Shown piece after piece: positions 11,065 through 57,444 of a stretch of 64,000 nucleotides of DNA. Below the pieces are notes generated by a model that did no database searches, had not been told where the DNA came from, and saw nothing but the letters and a program-made list of their open reading frames with translations. The first letter of the stretch is position 1, and each line of letters begins with the position of its first letter. The DNA is from Nanobdellota archaeon (GTDB taxonomy: Archaea; Nanobdellota; Nanobdellia; UBA10117; ARS21): positions 87,924 to 151,923 of the forward strand of contig JAAZWY010000001.1 of NCBI GenBank assembly GCA_014240455.1, written 5' to 3'. Position numbers and translations under genes: made by a program.

Positions 11065-14000
11065 TTAAGAACAGCCGCTTGTTGCACCACAAACATCACA
11101 CAACTCACATGAACCGTTTTGTCTCATCATCATTGCACCACACTCGCTACATTTATTTCCAGTGTAACCCATTGCCTTAATTGCATCTGAACCCTCTTCC
11201 GCATCTGCTTCAACTACTTTTTCTTTATTTGGAGTTAGTCGTGTTTGTACAATTCCTTGAATGTGTTGTCCACTTAGAACTTCTTCAATCTTTCTAAGAA
11301 TTGGATGATCTGACCATTCAGCAAAACATTCTTCAACTACGTCTTGAACAGGATATCCTCTTGCTAATGAGAAACTAATTGTTTTACTTACAAAGTCTAG
11401 CATTTCCTGATTGCTTGGGTTTGTTTTTGGCATCACGAGTCTCAATCCAACTAGTTGACCCTTTGGACTAACGTGTGAGTGAACGTATAAATCTTGAGGT
11501 CCAATTTTATGATTTGAAATTTGTTCAATATAATTTGTTACCTTTTCACCCTTTACTTGTTCTGTAACTGTTTCTTCTTTGAATATGTTTTCAAACTCTT
11601 TGTTGAATCCTTTTCCAGTTGATAGAGGTTGACTTAATTTACTTTCATTTCTGTAAAGTGCAACTGCTTTGATTGAATATTTCCAACTGTCGAAATATGC
11701 ATTTTTGATGTCTTCAATTGTTGCATCACTTGGCATGTTTATTGTTTTACTTATTGCTCCGGAAATGAAAGGTTGTGTTACGGACATCATCTTCAAGTGA
11801 GCGCTGTGCTTAATGAATCTCTTTCCTTTCTTTCCACATTTGTTTGCACAATCAAAAATAGAATAGTGTTCACCTTTCAAATGAGGTGCACCTTCAACAG
11901 TCATTGTTCCGCATAAGTATTCATCTGCTTCATCGACTTGCTCAGCTGAGAATCCAAGTTCGTTTAAAATATTTAAATTTGGATTGTTTAATTGCTCATC
12001 ACTAAGCCCAAGTACATTATTGCAGAAATCTTTTCCAAGAACGTGTTGATTGAACATAAAATTAATATCAAAAGCTCTTGAAGATTCATCTTCTAATTTG
12101 TTTAATTGTTCGTCAGTGAATCCTTTTTCTCTTAAAGTTTGATGATTGATATATGGAGCGTCTGCTAAAGTTCCGTGTCCGACACAATATTTTTCAATTG
12201 CTCTGACTTGGTCCTCAGAATAGTTTAATTTCTTTAAGGCAGATTTTAGAGAATTATTTACGATCTTGAAATATCCTCCTCCCGCAAGTTTCTTGAATTT
12301 TACAATTGAGAACTCTGGTTCGATTCCCGTTGTGTCACAATCCATTACTAATGCAATTGTTCCAGTTGGTGCGATTACAGTGACTTGTGCATTTCGGTAA
12401 CCGTTCTTTTGTCCAAGTTCTAATGCTTTATCCCAAGAATTTTGAGCTGCACTCAATAAATCCTTTGGACACAGTTCTTGATTAATTCCTGTTGGTAAGA
12501 TTGAAAGGTTTTCGTAAGATTCTGCCTTTGCGTCATAAGCAGCTCTTCTGTGATTTCGAATAACTCTCAGCATTGCATCTTTGTTCTTTTCGTATTCTGC
12601 GAAAGCTCCAAGATTTCCTGCAAGTTCTGCAGATGTTGAATATGATTCTCCACATAGAATTGAAGTTAATGCTCCGGCAATTGCTCGACCTTTGTCTGAA
12701 TCATAAGCAATTCCCATCTTCATTAGTAATGAACCAATATTTGCATATCCCAATCCTAACGTTCTATAATCAAAACTTTGTTTAGCAACAATCTTGCTTG
12801 GAAATTGAGCCATTAAAACTGAAATTTCTAGTGCTACTGTCCATAATCTTGTTGCGTGTTTGTATGCCTCAATATTGAAAGTTCCCGTTTCATCATCGTA
12901 GAATTTATCCAAATTAATACTTGCTAGATTACATGCAGTATCATCAATGAACATATATTCTGAACATGGATTACTTCCGTTTATTCTTCCACTGACTGGA
13001 CAAGTATGCCATTCATTTATTGTTGAGTCAAATTGTAATCCTGGATCTGCACTGACCCAAGCACTCATGGCAATATCATCCCACAATTTTTGTGCAGGAA
13101 CTTCCTTGTAGAGTTTTCCATCTGTTCGATTTTTTAATTGCCAGTTTGCATTATTTTGTAATGCTTCCATATAATCATTATTTACTCTGACACTATTGTT
13201 ACTGTTTTGTCCTGAGACTGTAATATATGCTTCACCTTCATAATGAGTATCAAATTCACTCATATCTAATTTTCCAACACCTTGTTTTGCTAATTCCAAA
13301 GCTCTTAGAATTAATTGAACTGGAACTTTTGCATTGTTGGCATTTCGAATTGCGTCTCTTAACTTTGTATTTTCTGTTAGATTTAATCCGTGTTTGTTTG
13401 CTGCTTTCAAAATATTATTTGTATGTTCTTTACACACAATGCTTCCTGCGACTAGGCTTGCAACCTTGTCTTCTTCTGAAGCTTTCCATTTAATGAATGA
13501 TTCAATTTCTGGATGATCAATATCCAAGATAACCATTTTTGCAGCTCTTCGAGTTGTTCCACCTGATTTAATTGAACCTGCTGAAGTGTCATTGATCTTC
13601 AAGAAAGACATTAGTCCAGATGAACTTCCTCCGCCTGAAAGAGTTTCACCTTTTCCTCGAATTGATGAGAAATTTGTTCCTACTCCAGAACCATATTTGA
13701 AAATTCTTGCTTCTCTTGTAACTAAATCAAAAATACCTCCTTCGTTTACCAGATCATCTCTAACTGATAAGATGAAACAGGCATGAGGTTGTGGTCTTGA
13801 ATATGCATCAGGAGATTGAGTCAATGTTCCTGTTTTCGGATCAATATAATAATGTCCTTGCGGGTTTCCAGTAATTCCGTATGCGTAATTTAATCCAGTG
13901 TTAAACCATTGTGGAGAATTTGGAGCGCCCATTTGATTTAATAAAATGAAAGCCATTTCTTCGTAGAATGCTTTTGAATCTTTACTTGAATTGAAATATC

Positions 14001-14325
14001 CGAATTTCGTTCCCCAATCTGTCCAGCACCCAACCATTCTGTGGACTACTTGTTTGATGCTACTTTCTGAACCAACTTCTGGAACTCCTGCCTTTCTGAA
14101 ATATTTCTGAGCAAGAATATCTGTTGCAATCTGAGACCATTGTTTTGGAACTTCAACATTTTTCATGTCAAAGACAACAGATCCATCTGGATTCCGAATT
14201 GTAGACGTTCGAAGATCATAAGCAAACATATCATAAACTGATGTTTCAGGTTTGGTAAAAACTCGATTAACGACTATTCCCTGAGTTGCGATTGTTGACT
14301 CTGCCGGTGGATTTTCATATTCCAT
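11065..14325 (-). CDS. nrdJ: Class II (adenosylcobalamin-dependent) ribonucleoside-triphosphate/diphosphate reductase NrdJ
   Basis: Catalytic-core motifs (SNPCSEY, GSGVGTNFS..R) and C-terminal Cys-rich zinc ribbon CSECGAMMMRQNGSCELCDVCG. Confidence 0.85.
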   Translation of the reverse strand: MEYENPPAESTIATQGIVVNRVFTKPETSVYDMFAYDLRTSTIRNPDGSVVFDMKNVEVPKQWSQIATDILAQKYFRKAGVPEVGSESSIKQVVHRMVGCWTDWGTKFGYFNSSKDSKAFYEEMAFILLNQMGAPNSPQWFNTGLNYAYGITGNPQGHYYIDPKTGTLTQSPDAYSRPQPHACFILSVRDDLVNEGGIFDLVTREARIFKYGSGVGTNFSSIRGKGETLSGGGSSSGLMSFLKINDTSAGSIKSGGTTRRAAKMVILDIDHPEIESFIKWKASEEDKVASLVAGSIVCKEHTNNILKAANKHGLNLTENTKLRDAIRNANNAKVPVQLILRALELAKQGVGKLDMSEFDTHYEGEAYITVSGQNSNNSVRVNNDYMEALQNNANWQLKNRTDGKLYKEVPAQKLWDDIAMSAWVSADPGLQFDSTINEWHTCPVSGRINGSNPCSEYMFIDDTACNLASINLDKFYDDETGTFNIEAYKHATRLWTVALEISVLMAQFPSKIVAKQSFDYRTLGLGYANIGSLLMKMGIAYDSDKGRAIAGALTSILCGESYSTSAELAGNLGAFAEYEKNKDAMLRVIRNHRRAAYDAKAESYENLSILPTGINQELCPKDLLSAAQNSWDKALELGQKNGYRNAQVTVIAPTGTIALVMDCDTTGIEPEFSIVKFKKLAGGGYFKIVNNSLKSALKKLNYSEDQVRAIEKYCVGHGTLADAPYINHQTLREKGFTDEQLNKLEDESSRAFDINFMFNQHVLGKDFCNNVLGLSDEQLNNPNLNILNELGFSAEQVDEADEYLCGTMTVEGAPHLKGEHYSIFDCANKCGKKGKRFIKHSAHLKMMSVTQPFISGAISKTINMPSDATIEDIKNAYFDSWKYSIKAVALYRNESKLSQPLSTGKGFNKEFENIFKEETVTEQVKGEKVTNYIEQISNHKIGPQDLYVHSHVSPKGQLVGLRLVMPKTNPSNQEMLDFVSKTISFSLARGYPVQDVVEECFAEWSDHPILRKIEEVLSGQHIQGIVQTRLTPNKEKVVEADAEEGSDAIKAMGYTGNKCSECGAMMMRQNGSCELCDVCGATSGCS

Positions 14326-25843: not shown

Positions 25844-26161
25844 TCACAACTTTCTCAAAATACCACTAACCTTCTCAGCAGAAACAGTAGCCTTCTTACC
25901 TTTAACATCCTTGATCAAAGCCAATGCTGCTTTTGTTTCATTTAACATTTTAGAATTTGTACGTAAAACTCCAGTCTGGATTTTAGTATCATACTTCATA
26001 AATTGTATTCCGGCTTTTGCTACACCTAGCTCACCCAGAAAACGTTTACATCCCGCGACTATTGCAATACCAGCGTCTTTTGAAGAGAGTGTTTGTTTTG
26101 AAGATATTTTAAATTGAACATATCTAGGATTTTCTTTCAAGACAGGTAAAATAGGTTTCAT
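25844..26161 (-). CDS. rnp2: RNase P protein component 2 (Pop5/Rpp14 family)
   Basis: LPVLKENPRYVQFKI ... FLGELGVAKAG ... KIQTGVLR ... GKKA ... VSGILRKL matches archaeal Pop5 pattern. Confidence 0.75.
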   Translation of the reverse strand: MKPILPVLKENPRYVQFKISSKQTLSSKDAGIAIVAGCKRFLGELGVAKAGIQFMKYDTKIQTGVLRTNSKMLNETKAALALIKDVKGKKATVSAEKVSGILRKL

Positions 26162-26191: not shown

Positions 26192-26392
26192 CTACTTCTT
26201 AGAACCAACTCTTTGATCTTTAAGCTTTCTTGCAGTTTCAGTCCACTTAGTCTTTTGTGGTTTTCTACCAAGCTTCATAAAATTCTTCAAGTTTTTACTG
26301 TTCAAAAAGTAGTAAATTCTTCCACTATTTCGGACAACCATTCTTCCTGTTCCTTTTGGAATTTGTTCTCCTGAAAATGAGCATTTGGCCAT
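26192..26392 (-). CDS. rpl24e: 50S ribosomal protein L24e (zinc-finger cysteines mostly absent)
   Basis: MAKCSFSGEQI.KG.G...V...G...YF.NSKN...F..GR.P.K.KWT; conserved L7Ae-S28e-L24e order. Confidence 0.8.
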   Translation of the reverse strand: MAKCSFSGEQIPKGTGRMVVRNSGRIYYFLNSKNLKNFMKLGRKPQKTKWTETARKLKDQRVGSKK

Positions 26393-26664
26393 TATCTACG
26401 ACCTCCTCTACTTCCACCTGCTTCGATTTCAGTTTGAGTTAACATAATAATGTCACCAGGTCTAGTTGGACCATAAACTAATCTTCGCATAATTTTACCA
26501 GCATCTCTGCCGTCTAGAATTTTACATCGAACCATGTAAACAGCTTGTTTTCCAGATTGTCTTTCAAGACGTTCAATAACTTCAGCAGGATAAGCAGTTA
26601 ATAGTTTACTGTCTCCTTTTACTTTTTCTTTTGGTGCGTCTTTAACTTTCTGATTTTTTGCCAT
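26392..26664 (-). CDS. rps28e: 30S ribosomal protein S28e
   Basis: AEVIE...G..G.V..V.CKILDGRD.GKI..R.V.GP.R.GDIIML..TE.EA. Confidence 0.85.
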   Translation of the reverse strand: MAKNQKVKDAPKEKVKGDSKLLTAYPAEVIERLERQSGKQAVYMVRCKILDGRDAGKIMRRLVYGPTRPGDIIMLTQTEIEAGGSRGGRR

Positions 26665-27416
26665 TACTCAGTCTTTTCTTCTGAAGTTTCAGCTTCTTTC
26701 TTTTTAGGCTTTTCTTCAACAGGTGCTTCTACTTCCGCTTCTTCAGCTGGTTTTTCTTCAGTAGCTTCCTCTTCTGAAGTTTCAGCTTCTTCCTTTTTAT
26801 CTTCTTTGGATTCTGCTTCTTCTGTCTTTTCTTCAACAGGTGCTTCTACTTCTTCAGCCGGAGTTTCTTCAGCAGGTTCTTCTACAACTTCCTCAGTTTT
26901 TTCTTCTGATTCAGCCGGAGTTTCTTCAACAGCTTTTTCAACCTTTGCAGGTTTTTCAGCTGGTGCTTCTGTCTTTTCTTCAGCAGATTCTTCTACTTTT
27001 TCCTTTGGAGCTTTCTTTTCTGCTGGTTTTTCTTCAGCAGGTTTTTCAGCCTTTACAGGTTCAGCTTCTGCTTTCATTAAAATTTGAATATCTTCTAAAA
27101 GATTGTTTAGTTTCTTTTGAGCTTCACCAGGATTTGCAATTGCTACAGCAGCTGTTGCGACAGGTAATCCTGCAGCTGCGCCTAATTCTGCTTTAGAAGG
27201 CACTTCAACGTGCATAATTTCTTTATCCTTAGCTAAAAGAGCTAAATGTTGAATAATTTCGCCTGGAGATACGTCAGTAGCTACAATAGATAGCTTAGCT
27301 TCACCTCTTTCCAAGGACTTTGTTACTTCGTTTACACCTTTCCGGATTTTTCCGTCAGTACGAGAATCCTCAATAATTGAGTAGATTCTTTCAATAATAT
27401 CTTTTGTTAGTTCCAT
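26664..27416 (-). CDS. rpl7ae: 50S ribosomal protein L7Ae (K-turn binding) with unusual about 130-aa C-terminal Lys/Glu/Ala/Pro-rich low-complexity extension
   Basis: N-terminal 120 aa match L7Ae (GVNEVTK...AKL.I.A.DVSP.EII.HL..LA); tail EEKPAE/EETPAE repeats with DNA-level direct repeats. Confidence 0.8.
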   Translation of the reverse strand: MELTKDIIERIYSIIEDSRTDGKIRKGVNEVTKSLERGEAKLSIVATDVSPGEIIQHLALLAKDKEIMHVEVPSKAELGAAAGLPVATAAVAIANPGEAQKKLNNLLEDIQILMKAEAEPVKAEKPAEEKPAEKKAPKEKVEESAEEKTEAPAEKPAKVEKAVEETPAESEEKTEEVVEEPAEETPAEEVEAPVEEKTEEAESKEDKKEEAETSEEEATEEKPAEEAEVEAPVEEKPKKKEAETSEEKTE

Positions 27417-27480
27417 TTTAACCTCGTTAACCTCATTGGTTAATAGTTGGAGTTATTTGTTGTGTTTAAAAAGATTGTTA

Positions 27481-28677
27481 TTAGAGCTTGCGGTTTAGAG
27501 CATCTAGCGTCTTGTAAACTTCCTTCTTGTCTACTGTTTTATCTCGTTTGGTTGGACCCATTTCGTAGAAGAATTTCAACAGAGATTTTGCTTTAATTCC
27601 TCGTTTCCGTATTGATGCCAGAGTTTCTACTCTTTCATCATCATAACCGGTGTACTTTCCTTCCTCAACACCTTTTCTAACATCAGATGCAGAAATAATC
27701 ATATTCTTGAAATTGATTCTTCCCAAGTGGATGTACTCAGGATAAGTCCATCCTAAGAAGTCGTAAATCATTTTTTGCTTTTTAGTATTATCTTCATGAT
27801 CTTTTCCTCTAATTACATGAGTCATTTTTAGATCATAGTCATCGATTGCCACTGAGAAGTTCATAAGAGGCCATACTCTTACTTTATTTCCAACTTTTGG
27901 ATGTTTTCCTCCTGAAATTCTGAATGCTACCCACTCTTTTAGCGCAGGATTTTTACCCTTTAAATTTGTTTTAACTCTGACGACTGCTTCACCAGGATTA
28001 TATTTTCCAGTGAGCATTCTTTTCCACTTTCGCAATACTTCCTTAAGATCATCTCTTCGACCGAACGGTTGAATTCCCTTTTTCAATTTTGCTTTAACTT
28101 CTTCAGGAGTTTCTTCGCAGACGTATAAATGTCCCATTTTTATTAATTGTTCAGCGTATTTGTAGTAAGTTTTAATTCGAGCAGATTGAATGTAAGTCTC
28201 GCTAGGTTTTCCTGCCAACCAAGTGTAATCTTTTGGAATCATTTTGTAGAATTCTTTGAAGTTTGCGTCAGGATTTGTGTCTTCGATTCTTAGGATGTGT
28301 TTTCCTTTGTATTTGTCAGCGTAGATTTTATTAAGTGAGATAACCAAAGCGTGACCGATGTGTAAAGGTCCAGATGCAGAAGGAGCAAAACGTGCTCGGA
28401 AATTCTTGCCAACATTTGGAAGATCAATTAGTTCTTTTTTTACTTTGACCTTTTTATTGAAAAACGAGGGATTGATTTTTTTGAGTTGAGCTTTTTGCTT
28501 TGAAAGTGAGAGTTTGTTTACTTTTTTGATAGTATCCGAAACTTCTTTTCCAATTGCCCTTAGTTTTGATTTGTCTTTGACTGTAGGGATTATTTTATTC
28601 ATAACTGCTTTAGGATTAGCTTTGCCTTTGAAAGCTACTGCGTTTTCTAAAGTAAGTTGTAGAATCTTTTTCTTCAT
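27481..28677 (-). CDS. gltX: Glutamyl-tRNA synthetase, archaeal type, catalytic core only (398 aa; anticodon-binding domains absent)
   Basis: Archaeal-type N-terminal NAVAFKGKANPKAVM, HIGH motif (GPLHIGHA), RIEDTNP; ends at ...YKTLDALNRKL where homologs continue into C-terminal domains. Confidence 0.7.
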   Translation of the reverse strand: MKKKILQLTLENAVAFKGKANPKAVMNKIIPTVKDKSKLRAIGKEVSDTIKKVNKLSLSKQKAQLKKINPSFFNKKVKVKKELIDLPNVGKNFRARFAPSASGPLHIGHALVISLNKIYADKYKGKHILRIEDTNPDANFKEFYKMIPKDYTWLAGKPSETYIQSARIKTYYKYAEQLIKMGHLYVCEETPEEVKAKLKKGIQPFGRRDDLKEVLRKWKRMLTGKYNPGEAVVRVKTNLKGKNPALKEWVAFRISGGKHPKVGNKVRVWPLMNFSVAIDDYDLKMTHVIRGKDHEDNTKKQKMIYDFLGWTYPEYIHLGRINFKNMIISASDVRKGVEEGKYTGYDDERVETLASIRKRGIKAKSLLKFFYEMGPTKRDKTVDKKEVYKTLDALNRKL

Positions 28678-28706: not shown

Positions 28707-29099
28707 CTATGCGAATTTAATCCAAGCTAGAATTAGAAGCAGACTATTTACAAGATATATGCTTGTACAAACTAAACAGAAGTTTTTGAGTTTGAAATAT
28801 GAAATATATGCCAGATAAATTGTTGTAAGCATTCCGAATGCTGCTAAGTATAGAATCCAGGGTGCGTAAAAAGTTAAGTATAGAATAAATATTGTTGAGT
28901 AAAATCCAATTCCCAGAATTGAATTATTTATCCCTAACGTTCTCGAATATTTACTTTCAAATGCTGCTGAGCAAGAGATTTTTTTATTTATGTCACAAAC
29001 GGGAGAATAATCTTCTTGCGCCACTAATTTTCTTTCAACATACAAGGAGTAAACAGATAGAATTAATCCTAAAATTGCTAAGATTTGAATGTAAATCAT
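28707..29099 (-). CDS. Vitamin K epoxide reductase (VKOR) family membrane protein
   Basis: Loop cysteines C..... CSAAFESKYS and TM CxxC (CLVC); 4 TM. Confidence 0.65.
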   Translation of the reverse strand: MIYIQILAILGLILSVYSLYVERKLVAQEDYSPVCDINKKISCSAAFESKYSRTLGINNSILGIGFYSTIFILYLTFYAPWILYLAAFGMLTTIYLAYISYFKLKNFCLVCTSIYLVNSLLLILAWIKFA

Positions 29100-55536: not shown

Positions 55537-57444
55537 TTACTTATATTTCCAACCAGCAATGTGGATTGTATCCCATAGAATTCCTTTCGATCTCCAAACT
55601 TTTACTTTGAACCCTGCTTGTTCGAAAGTTTGACTTATTTTATCATCTTCACTCATCCATTCCGGAGCCCTGAATATTTTAAACACTCGATCATAATCTA
55701 TGAAATAAACTCTCCCTCGTTGTGCCATTCTCAGATTTAATGCATGAAGTACTTTTTCAGGTTCCGATAAATAACCAAGTAAACCTACTGAAGTTGCGCC
55801 ATGTAAAGTATGAACATTTTTGTGAAGTTCGTGTCTTGATCCAGAACTTTCAAGAATAAATTCAACATTTTGCAGTCCATGTTTCTGAGCAAGCTTTGTT
55901 GCATTGTGTAAATTGTTTGTTGAAACGTCAGTTGCAATAACTTGACCTTCTGCTCCAACTAGCTGAGCTAAATCTTTTGCTAGTTCTCCTGAACTGGCAC
56001 CCATGTTTAGGATTCTTCGTCGTTCAAATCCTTCAAAGTGTTTTAGAATATAGTTGTGAGTTTTTGGTTTTACAAATAATTTGTATGAAAACTTTTGTAA
56101 TGATGATGAAGTGTCCAATAATTTTTGAACGATTAATGGTTTACTTTCAACAGTACGCATTAAATAAAGAGGTACTCCGAGTGCTACAAACATTGCTCCA
56201 GTTGCAGTAGTAATCGGTTCGATTCCACCAAGTAAGAACATTAGAACTAACCCAAGCGTGACTGGCATAACTTTTCCAAATGGAACTTTGAAGGTTCTTT
56301 CAGTATCGGGTTGAGTAAATCTGAGTATAGTTACACTTACTACGACCATTGAGTACATGAAAATTGCGAGCGGTAGTACTAATTCCAATAGAAGTGCATA
56401 TGACCCAGAGATTATTATCAATCCTGATAGCACTGCCTGAACGAGGATTGCTATGTAAGGTGTTTGATATTTTGGGTGAATTTTTTGAAGTGCTTTTGGA
56501 AGAAGTCCATCTCTTGCTAAAGCGAAAATTAATCTTGGAGTTGTAATAATCCATGCTGCAGCCCCACCGAAGATATTTAGGAAGATTAGAAGAGTCATTA
56601 TTTTTCCTCCGGTTGTTCCCATGATTGCGTTTGCTACTTCAGTAAGCGGAGCGTTCGATCCTGCTAGAATTTCCCAGTTGACTGCACCTAACGAAATAGA
56701 TACAACTCCAATGGCCAATAGTGTTACGCATAAGGTTCCCCACATCATAACTTTCGGAATTACATTTTTTGCATCCTTTGTTTCTTCTGCAAGGTTTGCT
56801 ACAGTTTCCCATCCGAAGAAGGTTTCCAGAATATATACCATTGCGATTACTAGCGAAATTATTAATCCCTTTTCTCCAATGTGTGGCATCATATTTATGA
56901 TTTGAATATTTCCGAAGTCAAAATAATATACTCCCCAACTAATCAAAGTCCAAAGAGACAGGATGGTAACAATGGAAAAGATTAGCAGAACCTTTACAGA
57001 TAAATCTACTCCGCGGAATGAAACCACATTTATTAATGTTACAATTCCGAGAGCAACTACTATTTTGAAAAGTTGAGACATATCAAAGAAAATGGTTAGG
57101 TATTCTAAACAACCAATTGACAGCATTGCAATTGTTACGTTTGCAACCATCCATGAAGTCCAACCCACTAAGAATCCGCCAAATTCTCCAAAAGCTTGTT
57201 TAGTATATTCATATACTCCTCCGGATTTTGGGAACATTCCAACTAGTTCTGCGAAACATGCTGCTACAAGCATTGCAAGAATTGCTACTCCTACCCAAGC
57301 GATTAAGGATGCTGGACCGGCGATTGCTGCTGCGATTCCCGGAACGAAGAATATTCCTGTTCCAATAATTGCGTTTATTGCCAATAGAATCAATACGCTG
57401 AACGAAATGCTTTTCTTTAGCTCAGGAGTATTTGATTCTGCCAC
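55537..57444 (-). CDS. Fusion: APC-family amino acid permease (N-terminal about 440 aa) + class I SAM-dependent methyltransferase domain (C-terminal about 190 aa)
   Basis: 12 TM then ILNMGASSGELAKDL...VIATDVS...NVEFILESSG (motifs I/II/post-I) in cytoplasmic C-terminus. Confidence 0.65.
   Translation of the reverse strand: MAESNTPELKKSISFSVLILLAINAIIGTGIFFVPGIAAAIAGPASLIAWVGVAILAMLVAACFAELVGMFPKSGGVYEYTKQAFGEFGGFLVGWTSWMVANVTIAMLSIGCLEYLTIFFDMSQLFKIVVALGIVTLINVVSFRGVDLSVKVLLIFSIVTILSLWTLISWGVYYFDFGNIQIINMMPHIGEKGLIISLVIAMVYILETFFGWETVANLAEETKDAKNVIPKVMMWGTLCVTLLAIGVVSISLGAVNWEILAGSNAPLTEVANAIMGTTGGKIMTLLIFLNIFGGAAAWIITTPRLIFALARDGLLPKALQKIHPKYQTPYIAILVQAVLSGLIIISGSYALLLELVLPLAIFMYSMVVVSVTILRFTQPDTERTFKVPFGKVMPVTLGLVLMFLLGGIEPITTATGAMFVALGVPLYLMRTVESKPLIVQKLLDTSSSLQKFSYKLFVKPKTHNYILKHFEGFERRRILNMGASSGELAKDLAQLVGAEGQVIATDVSTNNLHNATKLAQKHGLQNVEFILESSGSRHELHKNVHTLHGATSVGLLGYLSEPEKVLHALNLRMAQRGRVYFIDYDRVFKIFRAPEWMSEDDKISQTFEQAGFKVKVWRSKGILWDTIHIAGWKYK

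What the first reader, a model, noticed from the sequence alone, without database searches (positions are those of the whole stretch)
27481..28677. Glutamyl-tRNA synthetase reduced to its catalytic core (no anticodon-binding domain)
The 398-aa product has the archaeal-type N-terminal domain, the HIGH motif and the Rossmann core through the KMSKS-equivalent region. It ends at ...YKTLDALNRKL, where homologous archaeal GluRS continue for about 170 more residues (beta-barrel anticodon-binding domains). The stop is followed by only 64 nt before the L7Ae gene on the same strand, so the missing part is not simply a frameshift nearby. The possibilities are a split GluRS with the C-terminal part encoded elsewhere, a genuinely minimal enzyme, or a pseudogene. 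Each bears on how tRNA-Glu/Gln discrimination works in this organism.
Basis: partly seen in the sequence, partly recalled or inferred. Interest (0 to 1): 0.5.

Follow-up and report, generated by a model that had tools for sequence, protein, structure and literature searches.

The report
Archaeal GluRS lacking its anticodon-binding domain
This small archaeon's glutamyl-tRNA synthetase gene really stops just before the part that normally reads the tRNA anticodon; the short form is conserved and under strong selection in several related lineages, and I found no separate gene for the missing part in the sequence I could search.

Summary
ORF 27481-28677 (-) encodes 398 aa that match archaeal GluRS from the N-terminal YqeY domain through the stem-contact fold. 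It ends 1-3 residues before the first beta-barrel of the anticodon-binding module, at a double TAA. About 160 residues are absent.

It is not a pseudogene or an assembly error. Seventeen database clusters at 63-93% identity have 398-400 aa, and one of them holds 71 members. dN/dS against a 91%-identical relative is 0.053, as low as the neighbouring TyrRS. All catalytic residues are kept.

It occupies the same syntenic slot (TyrRS ... GluRS ... L7Ae-S28e-L24e) as a full-length 562-aa GluRS in a sister lineage, so it descends from the canonical gene. The same truncation recurs in at least four DPANN groups and in about a quarter of 78 sampled metagenomic loci.

I found no detached C-terminal half in the window, in about 0.5 Mb of related loci, among 80 GTDB C-domain loci, or among six short database proteins, which were all artefacts. 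Whole genomes could not be searched. A detached half or a second GluRS elsewhere therefore remains possible.

Best reading: a naturally anticodon-domain-less GluRS. I found no published description.

The parts
27481..28677 (-). GluRS gene lacking the anticodon-binding module: 398 aa plus stop
   Evidence: ORF list; Pfam PF00749 only; archaeal GluRS NCBIfam models matched to profile position ~400 of 560-567; 3aii aligned at 9-391; AlphaFold2 model with mean pLDDT 94.3, whose best PDB match is 3aii at rmsd 1.5 A over 315 columns
28423..28677 (-). N-terminal YqeY-type domain (aa 1-85), a possible cis tRNA-affinity module
   Evidence: Aligns to residues 9-85 of M. thermautotrophicus GluRS, which PMC2978374 calls the YQEY domain. 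Predicted as four helices at pLDDT 87-95. dN/dS 0.093.
27688..28422 (-). Rossmann catalytic domain with CP (acceptor-binding) insertion, aa 86-330
   Evidence: PF00749. All columns invariant in 93 full-length homologues are kept, except N297Q. dN/dS 0.045.
28351..28362 (-). HIGH motif (aa 106-109)
   Evidence: Direct translation; invariant columns H106, G108 and H109
28060..28119 (-). Degenerate zinc site: CxC...CxC of full-length homologues is reduced to a single Cys (C187; E189, P204, G206)
   Evidence: Column comparison: the four Cys are 89-99% conserved in 93 full-length sequences and kept in truncated clade 2. In clade 1 they are replaced by E, P and G at 94-100%. Sequence CEETPEEVKAKLKKGIQPFG.
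27685..27699 (-). KMSKS-equivalent loop (IISAS, aa 327-331)
   Evidence: Aligned to ALSTS of 3aii; S329 is conserved; direct translation
27622..27648 (-). Clade-specific rewrite of the conserved GWDDxRLP(F/T) motif to GYDDERVET (aa 344-352)
   Evidence: 6 of 9 conserved columns between aa 331 and 352 are changed in clade 1, against 1 of 9 in clade 2
27484..27621 (-). Stem-contact-fold domain (aa 353-398); the last helix ends ...FN-equivalent LNRKL, right at the boundary with the proximal beta-barrel
   Evidence: Alignment around the end point; domain limits of 3aii from PMC2978374; helix 384-397 predicted at pLDDT ~94; dN/dS 0.034 for aa 331-398
27478..27483 (-). Tandem stop codons TAA TAA
   Evidence: Sequence
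27417..27480 (-). 64-nt intergenic spacer with no trace of beta-barrel coding sequence
   Evidence: Sequence. tblastn with 93 C-termini, and an HMM of them against the six-frame translation, found nothing there or anywhere in the window.
26664..27416 (-). Downstream neighbour L7Ae, followed by S28e (26392-26664), L24e (26192-26392) and Rpp14 (25844-26161): the syntenic anchor
   Evidence: ORFs; the same order with Pfam labels in L001-L003, L092-L094 and L008
29096..30106 (-). Upstream neighbour TyrRS: the syntenic anchor on the other side
   Evidence: ORF; PF00579 in the same position in L001, L092 and, next to a full-length GluRS, in L008

Best explanation
The gene is the organism's own, orthologous glutamyl-tRNA synthetase. 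It has permanently lost both beta-barrel anticodon-binding domains and keeps the YqeY domain, Rossmann catalytic core, CP acceptor-binding insertion and stem-contact fold.

Shown:
- The truncation lies exactly at the domain boundary.
- It is fixed and under strong purifying selection.
- The active site is intact.
- The gene sits in the slot of the canonical GluRS.
- The same loss recurs in several DPANN lineages.

Inferred:
- The protein still activates glutamate and transfers it to tRNA-Glu, and, as in other archaea, probably to tRNA-Gln for later amidation.
- It selects its tRNAs through the acceptor stem, the D-arm and the elbow rather than the anticodon.
- The cis-attached YqeY domain and the stem-contact fold supply tRNA affinity. 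An unrelated partner protein is possible.
For: (1) End point. Query and all 17 clade-1 clusters end within 3 residues of ...FNRKx, aligned to ...FNKEI|IDxxxxRYFFV of full-length enzymes. This is the SC-fold/proximal-barrel boundary of 3aii.

(2) Conservation. P0001-P0017 are 398-400 aa at 63-93% identity. The P0001 cluster has 71 members from NCBI, JGI, ENA and Logan.

(3) Selection. dN/dS is 0.053 (dS 0.92) against L092, compared with 0.062 for TyrRS and 0.070 for FtsX. All three regions are constrained.

(4) Active site. R96, P99, S100, S102, G103, HIGH, R130, D133, T134, N135, Y144, W153, Q164, S165, R234, N243-A245, R253, H259, W269, N273, D279, D280, K292, H294 and Q301 are all kept. The model is confident and superposes on 3aii.

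(5) Orthology. The order ABC-FtsX-...-TyrRS-GluRS-...-L7Ae-S28e-L24e-...-Rpp14-proteasome-SBDS is shared by the window, L001-3 and L092-4 (truncated gene) and by L008 (562-aa GluRS P0028). The second truncated clade likewise shares an AP-endonuclease/NTP-transferase neighbourhood with full-length genes in L009 and L010.

(6) Recurrence. NJ analysis gives four truncated-only groups. Bootstrap is 100% for each of clades 1 and 2 and 7.5% for their union. 18-20 of about 78 metagenomic GluRS loci end at the same boundary.

(7) No detached C half. None in the 64-kb window. None in L001-L007. None in 216 kb around 20 further truncated genes. In 79 of the 80 best GTDB loci that encode the C domain, the catalytic half lies directly upstream and in the same frame; the remaining locus sits at a contig edge. 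Of seven short C-domain proteins looked up, six are artefacts of N-gaps, frameshifts or a contig edge, and the seventh (P0123) is unresolved because no DNA was available. No short C-domain cluster approaches the 71 members of the N-half cluster; the largest has 16.

(8) Precedent for YqeY as a cis-only tRNA-affinity enhancer in a GlxRS: PMC1865053.
Against: No whole genome of a carrier could be searched, so a detached C half or a second full-length GluRS/GlnRS elsewhere is not excluded.

The displayed lists were capped (150, 120 and 80 rows), so a divergent detached half could sit below the cut.

From general knowledge of GlnRS and GluRS, anticodon contacts usually contribute orders of magnitude to kcat/KM. 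An anticodon-blind enzyme would need compensating identity elements, and I could not examine any: no tRNA-Glu or tRNA-Gln gene lies in any held locus.

Clade 1 also shows derived changes: loss of three of the four zinc cysteines, N297Q, and GWDDxRLP changed to GYDDxxVET. These could equally mark a change of substrate.

No activity data exist.
Confidence: 0.5

Rival explanations
1. Neofunctionalised relic. The genome has another enzyme that makes Glu-tRNA (a full-length GluRS or GlnRS acquired or kept elsewhere). The truncated protein has taken on another job, for example glutamylating a different RNA position as bacterial GluQRS does, or a non-tRNA acceptor.
For: All well-studied aaRS that lack an anticodon-binding domain are paralogues with new functions. 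GluQRS/YadB is the only GluRS example listed in the review PMC9437257 and in PMC2978374. Clade 1 sits on a long stem branch. It has clade-specific substitutions in otherwise near-invariant columns: three zinc cysteines, N297Q and the GWDDxRLP motif.
Against: The gene sits in the syntenic slot of the canonical GluRS in two independent truncated clades, so it is not a duplicate at a new locus. This rival would need a replacement GluRS to have been acquired separately in at least 2-4 small-genome lineages. Clade 2 keeps the zinc site and the GWDD motif yet is truncated the same way. The NCBIfam GluQRS models score far below cut-off: 91 against 276.7. No second GluRS gene appears in any held locus, though these cover only about 20 kb each.
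Confidence: 0.25
2. Split enzyme. The two beta-barrel domains are encoded as a separate gene elsewhere in the genome and reassemble with the 398-aa protein in trans.
For: The break is exactly at a domain boundary. Split protein genes, including an aaRS, are known from Nanoarchaeum equitans (own knowledge). Many short PF03950/PF20974 proteins exist in public catalogues. P0123 lies on an 810-bp contig with an in-frame stop 42 codons upstream; it is unresolved because no DNA was available.
Against: No C domain in the window or in any of about 35 loci around truncated genes. In the GTDB scan, none of the 80 best C-domain loci (about 40 from DPANN) is demonstrably detached; the one without an upstream catalytic half lies at a contig edge. 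Meanwhile about a quarter of the sampled DPANN-like GluRS genes are truncated. All six short candidates with usable context are broken full-length genes or contig-edge fragments. No abundant short-protein cluster matches the abundance of the N-half clusters.
Confidence: 0.12
3. Pseudogene or assembly/sequencing artefact: a recent nonsense mutation or a mis-assembly removed the 3' end.
For: The product is about 29% shorter than canonical and falls below both NCBIfam equivalog cut-offs. NCBI records name close relatives 'hypothetical protein' or 'partial'.
Against: Identical architecture in independent assemblies from NCBI, JGI, ENA and Logan, with 71 members in one 90% cluster. dN/dS is 0.053. 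There is a tandem stop and a clean 64-nt spacer before the next conserved gene, with no remnant of barrel sequence in any frame. There are no N runs in the region.
Confidence: 0.02

Closest known systems
Archaeal non-discriminating GluRS (M. thermautotrophicus, PDB 3AII; NCBIfam PRK04156 / TIGR00463)
   Same: Same family and domain order for the first ~400 residues: YqeY domain, Rossmann core with HIGH, CP insertion, KMSKS-like loop and stem-contact fold. 43% identity in the structural alignment with 3aii, rmsd 1.5 A to the model. Positional orthologue of a full-length DPANN GluRS.
   Different: Lacks the proximal and distal beta-barrel anticodon-binding domains (PF03950, PF20974; residues 400-552 of 3AII). 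Lacks three of the four zinc-binding cysteines. Scores below both equivalog cut-offs.
GluQRS / YadB (bacterial glutamyl-queuosine tRNA-Asp synthetase)
   Same: A GluRS-family catalytic core that has lost its anticodon-binding domain and remains under selection. It is the only described natural precedent for an ABD-less GluRS-like enzyme.
   Different: GluQRS is a paralogue derived from bacterial GluRS, whose lost domain was an alpha-helical cage. It coexists with a full-length GluRS and has no YqeY domain. The window protein is of archaeal type, sits in the canonical GluRS locus and scores 91 bits against the 276.7-bit cut-off of TIGR03838. Queuosine is not an archaeal modification (own knowledge).
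Deinococcus radiodurans GlnRS with appended YqeY domain
   Same: A GlxRS that uses a covalently attached YqeY module as a cis-only tRNA-affinity enhancer (PMC1865053). This is the role I infer for the N-terminal YqeY domain here.
   Different: There YqeY is C-terminal and supplements an intact beta-barrel anticodon-binding domain. Here YqeY is N-terminal, as in all archaeal GluRS, and the barrels are gone.
Split aminoacyl-tRNA synthetase genes of Nanoarchaeum equitans (e.g. AlaRS in two ORFs; own knowledge)
   Same: A DPANN archaeon with an aaRS gene interrupted at a domain boundary.
   Different: In N. equitans both halves are found in the genome. Here no second half was found in any sequence I could search.

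Membership tests
Archaeal/eukaryotic-type GluRS (class Ib GlxRS) | Class I Rossmann catalytic domain of the Glu/Gln type with HIGH and a KMSKS-like loop | tested here: met
   PF00749 at E=2e-67; HIGH at aa 106-109 and IISAS at aa 327-331; near-invariant catalytic columns retained
Archaeal/eukaryotic-type GluRS (class Ib GlxRS) | N-terminal YqeY domain typical of archaeal GluRS | tested here: met
   Query 6-85 aligns to 3aii 9-85, named the YQEY domain in PMC2978374; helical and confidently modelled
Archaeal/eukaryotic-type GluRS (class Ib GlxRS) | Two C-terminal beta-barrel anticodon-binding domains (PF03950 + PF20974) | tested here: not met
   No Pfam hit. The ORF ends at the boundary. There is no such sequence in any frame of the window.
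Archaeal/eukaryotic-type GluRS (class Ib GlxRS) | Score above the curated equivalog cut-off (NF003169 516 bits; TIGR00463 401.75 bits) | tested here: not met
   449.8 and 381 bits. The shortfall comes from the missing third of the profile, not from divergence of the matched part.
Archaeal/eukaryotic-type GluRS (class Ib GlxRS) | Zinc-binding CxC...CxC cluster in the CP domain | tested here: not met
   C187 is kept; positions 189, 204 and 206 are E, P and G in clade 1. The cluster is intact in truncated clade 2 and in 89-99% of full-length homologues.
Archaeal/eukaryotic-type GluRS (class Ib GlxRS) | Orthology to the canonical GluRS gene (same locus) | tested here: met
   Shared TyrRS ... GluRS ... 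L7Ae-S28e-L24e synteny with the full-length P0028 locus L008
Archaeal/eukaryotic-type GluRS (class Ib GlxRS) | Glutamylation of tRNA-Glu (and tRNA-Gln) | not testable with these tools
   Needs an enzyme assay. No tRNA-Glu/Gln gene was available to inspect.
GluQRS (YadB) | Sequence membership (TIGR03838 / NF004312-5 cut-offs) and descent from bacterial-type GluRS | tested here: not met
   55-96 bits against cut-offs of 250-453. The nearest relatives are archaeal DPANN GluRS.
GluQRS (YadB) | Absence of an anticodon-binding domain | tested here: met
GluQRS (YadB) | Coexists with a full-length GluRS; glutamylates queuosine-34 of tRNA-Asp | not testable with these tools
   Whole genomes of carriers could not be searched, and there is no assay.
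Split (two-ORF) aminoacyl-tRNA synthetase | A second ORF encoding the missing domains in the same genome | tested here: inconclusive
   Absent from the window, from about 0.5 Mb of related loci, and from the best 80 GTDB C-domain loci. Six short candidates are artefacts. Complete genomes were not searchable.
Pseudogene | Relaxed selection, variable end points, disrupted frame | tested here: not met
   dN/dS 0.053; end point fixed within 3 residues in clade 1; intact ORF in 71+ sequences

The most novel reading that the evidence does not exclude
Several lineages of DPANN archaea (Woesearchaeota/Pacearchaeota-like) decode Glu, and via amidation Gln, with a sole GluRS that has no anticodon-binding module at all, and no detached half. 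On this reading, a natural anticodon-blind GlxRS has arisen at least four times by deletion at the same domain boundary, and tRNA identity has shifted to the acceptor/D-arm and the YqeY domain.
Probability: 0.45. Interest if true: 0.75.

Novelty: new variant of a known kind. Interest (0 to 1): 0.6.

Why it matters
In textbook and structural accounts, GluRS and GlnRS are among the synthetases that rely most on the anticodon, and they need bound tRNA even to activate the amino acid.

A canonical-locus GluRS that has shed the whole anticodon-binding module would be a natural experiment on three questions:
- How much of tRNA-Glu/Gln identity can be carried by the acceptor stem, D-arm and an appended YqeY domain.
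- How Glu/Gln discrimination is handled downstream.
- The old proposal that ancestral GlxRS was a catalytic domain only, which PMC2978374 discusses and argues against.

There is also a practical side. The short protein falls below the NCBIfam/TIGRFAM GluRS cut-offs and is labelled 'hypothetical' in NCBI records. Such genomes will therefore look as if they lack GluRS. If TIGR00463 is among the markers used, as I recall for the archaeal 122-marker set, they will also look less complete than they are.

Tried and rejected
(1) C half inside the window. tblastn of 93 C-termini and an HMM against all six frames gave only noise, E>0.2.

(2) ORFs just downstream of the truncated gene in clade 2 (155 and 146 aa) as a divergent C half. 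They are pilin-like proteins with a class-III signal peptide and show no similarity to the C-domain HMM.

(3) Short PF03950/PF20974 proteins as detached halves.
- P0273 (L009), P0288 (L010) and P0272 (L011) sit next to N-runs with the catalytic half directly upstream.
- P0305 (L095) is a frameshifted adjacent gene.
- P0455 (L096) starts 30 nt from a contig end.
- P0123 had no DNA available.

(4) GTDB scan for C domains. All were contiguous with the catalytic half.

(5) Metagenome scan intended to collect clade-1 loci. The tool chose generic motifs and returned only one clade-1 locus. It did give an unplanned frequency estimate of truncated genes.

(6) Excess positive charge as compensation for the lost domain. 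The retained part carries +35 to +48 in clade 1, against a mean of +11 in full-length homologues. But the full-length syntenic sister P0028 has +35 in the same region. The signal is phylogenetic or compositional, so I dropped it as evidence.

(7) A Trbp111-like tRNA_bind gene lies next to L24e in L008. It has no homologue in the window.

(8) tRNA-Glu/Gln identity elements. No such tRNA gene lies in the window or in ten related loci.

(9) Literature. Six full-text searches found no description of an archaeal GluRS without an anticodon-binding domain.
Full report
**1. The observation**

The ORF at 27481-28677 on the minus strand starts with ATG and encodes 398 residues ending ...YKTLDALNRKL. The stop is TAA followed directly by another TAA. 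Sixty-four nucleotides later, the L7Ae gene starts on the same strand at 27416.

- Pfam sees only the Glu/Gln class I catalytic domain (PF00749, residues 94-383, E=2e-67). It sees neither of the two C-terminal barrel families.
- The two NCBIfam archaeal GluRS equivalogs are matched from their first residues to profile position ~400 of 560-567. The scores (449.8 and 381 bits) fall just under their cut-offs.
- The solved M. thermautotrophicus enzyme (3aii, 553 aa) aligns at residues 9-391 with query 6-389.
- In an alignment with 93 full-length homologues, these continue for a median of 160 residues past the query's end.

**2. Where the protein ends**

The structure paper for 3AII gives these domains (PMC2978374):
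- YQEY domain, 1-85
- Rossmann fold, 86-170 and 288-331
- CP insertion, 171-287
- Stem-contact fold, 354-399
- Proximal beta-barrel, 400-408 and 500-552
- Distal beta-barrel, 409-499

The query's last residues (...YKTLDALNRKL) align to ...FKTLNAFNKEI of full-length enzymes. In those enzymes the next residues, IDxxxxRYFFV, begin the barrel. The protein thus keeps everything up to and including the stem-contact fold and lacks precisely the two barrels.

An AlphaFold2 model built on 110 homologues is confident throughout, with mean pLDDT 94.3 and a terminal helix at 384-397. Its best PDB match is 3aii at rmsd 1.5 A over 315 columns.

**3. Not a pseudogene, not an artefact**

The word-indexed protein search returned 17 clusters of 398-400 aa at 63-93% identity (P0001-P0017). 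The first full-length hits (545-596 aa, 43-47% identity) come after them.

The cluster of P0001 alone has 71 members from NCBI, JGI, ENA and Logan assemblies. They are named 'hypothetical protein [Candidatus Woesearchaeota archaeon]', 'uncultured DHVE6 group euryarchaeote' or 'glutamyl-tRNA synthetase'. All clade members end within three residues of the same column.

I compared the window with a 91%-identical relative (L092). The gene has dN 0.048, dS 0.92 and dN/dS 0.053.

| Gene or region | dN/dS |
|---|---|
| GluRS, whole gene | 0.053 |
| GluRS YqeY part | 0.093 |
| GluRS catalytic + CP part | 0.045 |
| GluRS C-terminal part | 0.034 |
| TyrRS | 0.062 |
| FtsX | 0.070 |
| L24e | 0.074 |

Of 134 columns that are at least 80% conserved in 93 full-length homologues, all those I recognise as catalytic are unchanged. 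These include R96, P99, S100, S102, G103, HIGH, R130, the DTNP motif, Y144, W153, Q164, S165, R234, NPA 243-245, R253, H259, W269, N273, DD 279-280, K292, H294 and Q301.

**4. It is the canonical gene, shortened**

The window's gene order is ABC ATPase, 306-aa protein, FtsX, TyrRS, VKOR-like protein, GluRS, L7Ae, S28e, L24e, Rpp14.

- The same order appears in L001-L003 (P0006, 399 aa, including a 271-kb NCBI contig) and in L092-L094.
- In L008, the same order surrounds a full-length 562-aa GluRS (P0028) carrying PF03950 and PF20974.

The short gene is therefore the positional orthologue of a normal GluRS, not a duplicate at another locus.

**5. The truncation recurs**

Other ~400-aa proteins (P0055, P0075, P0110, P0118; P0067) are only 43-47% identical to the query. 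In neighbour-joining trees they do not group with clade 1. Bootstrap support is 100% for each of clades 1 and 2, and 7.5% for their union.

Clade 2 lies in a different neighbourhood (AP endonuclease, nucleotidyltransferase, peptidase U32, HisRS). It shares that neighbourhood with full-length genes in L009 and L010.

A metagenome scan returned 80 archaeal GluRS loci. It was meant for clade 1, but the tool ran it with generic motifs. In 18-20 of them, the ORF ends at profile position 398-400 and no C domain lies within up to 10 kb on either side. These include contigs of 436, 204, 139 and 54 kb.

With these added, NJ gives four groups made only of truncated sequences. One member of clade 2 (L159, 457 aa) keeps only a ~60-residue remnant of the end of the barrel. 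NJ on single-gene data is weak for deep branches. The two different synteny contexts, each shared with full-length genes, are the stronger argument for at least two independent losses.

**6. Search for the missing half**

- **Window.** tblastn with 93 C-termini, and an HMM of them against all six frames with filters off, gave nothing better than E=0.77.
- **Related loci.** The HMM found nothing in L001-L007 or in 216 kb around 20 further truncated genes.
- **Clade 2 downstream ORFs.** These are pilin-like, not barrel domains.
- **Protein databases.** An exhaustive profile search of 1.84 billion representatives found 1,376 hits. Two word-indexed searches listed many short PF03950/PF20974 proteins. 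I looked up seven of the most promising. Three lie beside N-runs with the catalytic half directly upstream (L009-L011). One is a frameshifted adjacent gene (L095). One starts 30 nt from a contig end (L096). P0123 had no DNA. None is a true stand-alone gene.
- **Cluster sizes.** No short-protein cluster has more than 16 members, against 71 for the N-half cluster.
- **GTDB.** In a scan of GTDB species representatives, all 80 best loci encoding the C domain, about 40 of them from DPANN, have the catalytic half immediately upstream and in frame. The single exception is cut by a contig end.

Suppose roughly a quarter of DPANN-like GluRS genes were split, each with a detectable partner. Then a visible share of detached C domains would be expected, and none was seen.

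This argument has limits. The lists are capped, a detached half could be more divergent, and I could not search any carrier genome in full.

**7. Extra changes in this clade**

Clade 1 has lost three of the four cysteines of the CxC...CxC zinc site in the CP domain: C187 is kept, and positions 189, 204 and 206 are E, P and G. It has also rewritten the near-invariant GWDDxRLP(F/T) motif to GYDDxxVET and changed the invariant N297 to Q. Clade 2 keeps all of these.

Zinc-site loss has precedents in active bacterial GluRS (PMC4381286, abstract). Loss of the barrels does not require these changes. They may be later adaptations, or they may hint at altered tRNA handling in clade 1.

**8. How it most likely works**

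*Shown:* an intact, selected GluRS catalytic machine with YqeY, CP and stem-contact domains, in the canonical locus, without barrels.

*Inferred:*
- It still makes Glu-tRNA-Glu and, as in other archaea, which generally lack GlnRS (own knowledge), Glu-tRNA-Gln.
- Recognition rests on the acceptor stem through the CP domain, on the inner corner of the tRNA through the stem-contact fold, and on the YqeY domain.
- In Deinococcus GlnRS, YqeY raises tRNA affinity 24- to 100-fold and works only in cis (PMC1865053).
- An archaeal non-discriminating enzyme must already tolerate both YUC and YUG anticodons, which may make anticodon reading less indispensable than in discriminating enzymes.

I put this at about 0.5.

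*Rivals:*
- A second GluRS elsewhere, with this protein repurposed in the manner of GluQRS: 0.25. The canonical locus in two clades, and the need for repeated replacement, argue against it.
- A detached C half elsewhere: 0.12.
- Pseudogene or artefact: 0.02.

**9. Comparison with what is known**

The protein is an archaeal-type GluRS by sequence, fold and locus. It fails two defining features of the family as curated: the barrel anticodon-binding domains and the equivalog score cut-offs. In this clade it also lacks the zinc site.

It works like GluQRS only in being ABD-less. It is not a member of that family (91 bits against a 276.7-bit cut-off, archaeal descent).

Six full-text searches found no description of such an enzyme. 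A 2022 review of aaRS duplicates and paralogues lists only YadB under GluRS.

I rate it a new variant of a known kind, with interest 0.6. It is real, widespread and apparently unreported, but its functional meaning hinges on a whole-genome check that is easy to do and that I could not do here.

Noticed in passing
window 26664-27416 (-): The L7Ae gene encodes 250 aa. After the ~120-aa L7Ae core comes a ~130-aa low-complexity tail rich in E, K, A, P and T. Relatives have 178-213 aa (L001, L092) or 201 aa (L008).
   Followed up: no
window 28707-29099 (-); L092 7749-9962: A 130-aa VKOR-like membrane protein lies between TyrRS and GluRS and overlaps the TyrRS stop by 4 nt. In the 91%-identical relative L092, a 591-aa ABC transporter is inserted between it and GluRS, so gene content here is fluid even among close relatives.
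   Followed up: partly
window 28060-28119 (-): The zinc-binding CxC...CxC cluster of archaeal GluRS is reduced to a single Cys in this clade only. The other truncated clade keeps it.
   Followed up: partly
L159 2-1372 (metagenome contig Ga0209514_10025298): A 457-aa GluRS groups with truncated clade 2. It keeps only a ~60-residue remnant resembling the last strands of the proximal barrel (...HFAGHGYSRYDSREKLFYFTHP; HMM E=0.25). It may be an intermediate stage of domain loss.
   Followed up: partly
L009 8850-10537; L010 1381-3067; L011 3781-5246; L095 1-1481; L096 30-575: Public protein catalogues hold many 150-200-aa 'GluRS C-terminal' proteins that look like stand-alone anticodon-binding domains. 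Every one I could inspect is an artefact of a scaffold gap (N-run), a frameshift or a contig end.
   Followed up: yes
window 27481-28677 (-); NCBI relatives MBT4135241.1, RZD30586.1: The short GluRS scores below the NF003169 and TIGR00463 cut-offs and is named 'hypothetical protein' in NCBI records. Carriers may be scored as lacking GluRS in pathway or completeness surveys; this last point is inference.
   Followed up: partly
window 55537-57444 (-): A 635-aa ORF combines an amino-acid permease (residues 14-413) with a C-terminal SAM-methyltransferase domain (residues 468-586), an unusual fusion.
   Followed up: no
window 11065-14325 (-): A class II ribonucleotide reductase of 1086 aa. The Pfam barrel-domain match is reported in two stretches, which suggests a large insertion, possibly an intein.
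   Followed up: no
L004 5362-5829; L006 9920-10360: In truncated clade 2, the gene just downstream of GluRS encodes a 146-155-aa protein with an archaeal class-III (pilin-like) signal peptide. It is conserved in position across 45%-diverged relatives.
   Followed up: partly
L008 9794-10132: The full-length-GluRS sister lineage carries a 112-aa Trbp111-like tRNA_bind (PF01588) gene next to L24e. It has no counterpart in the window.
   Followed up: partly
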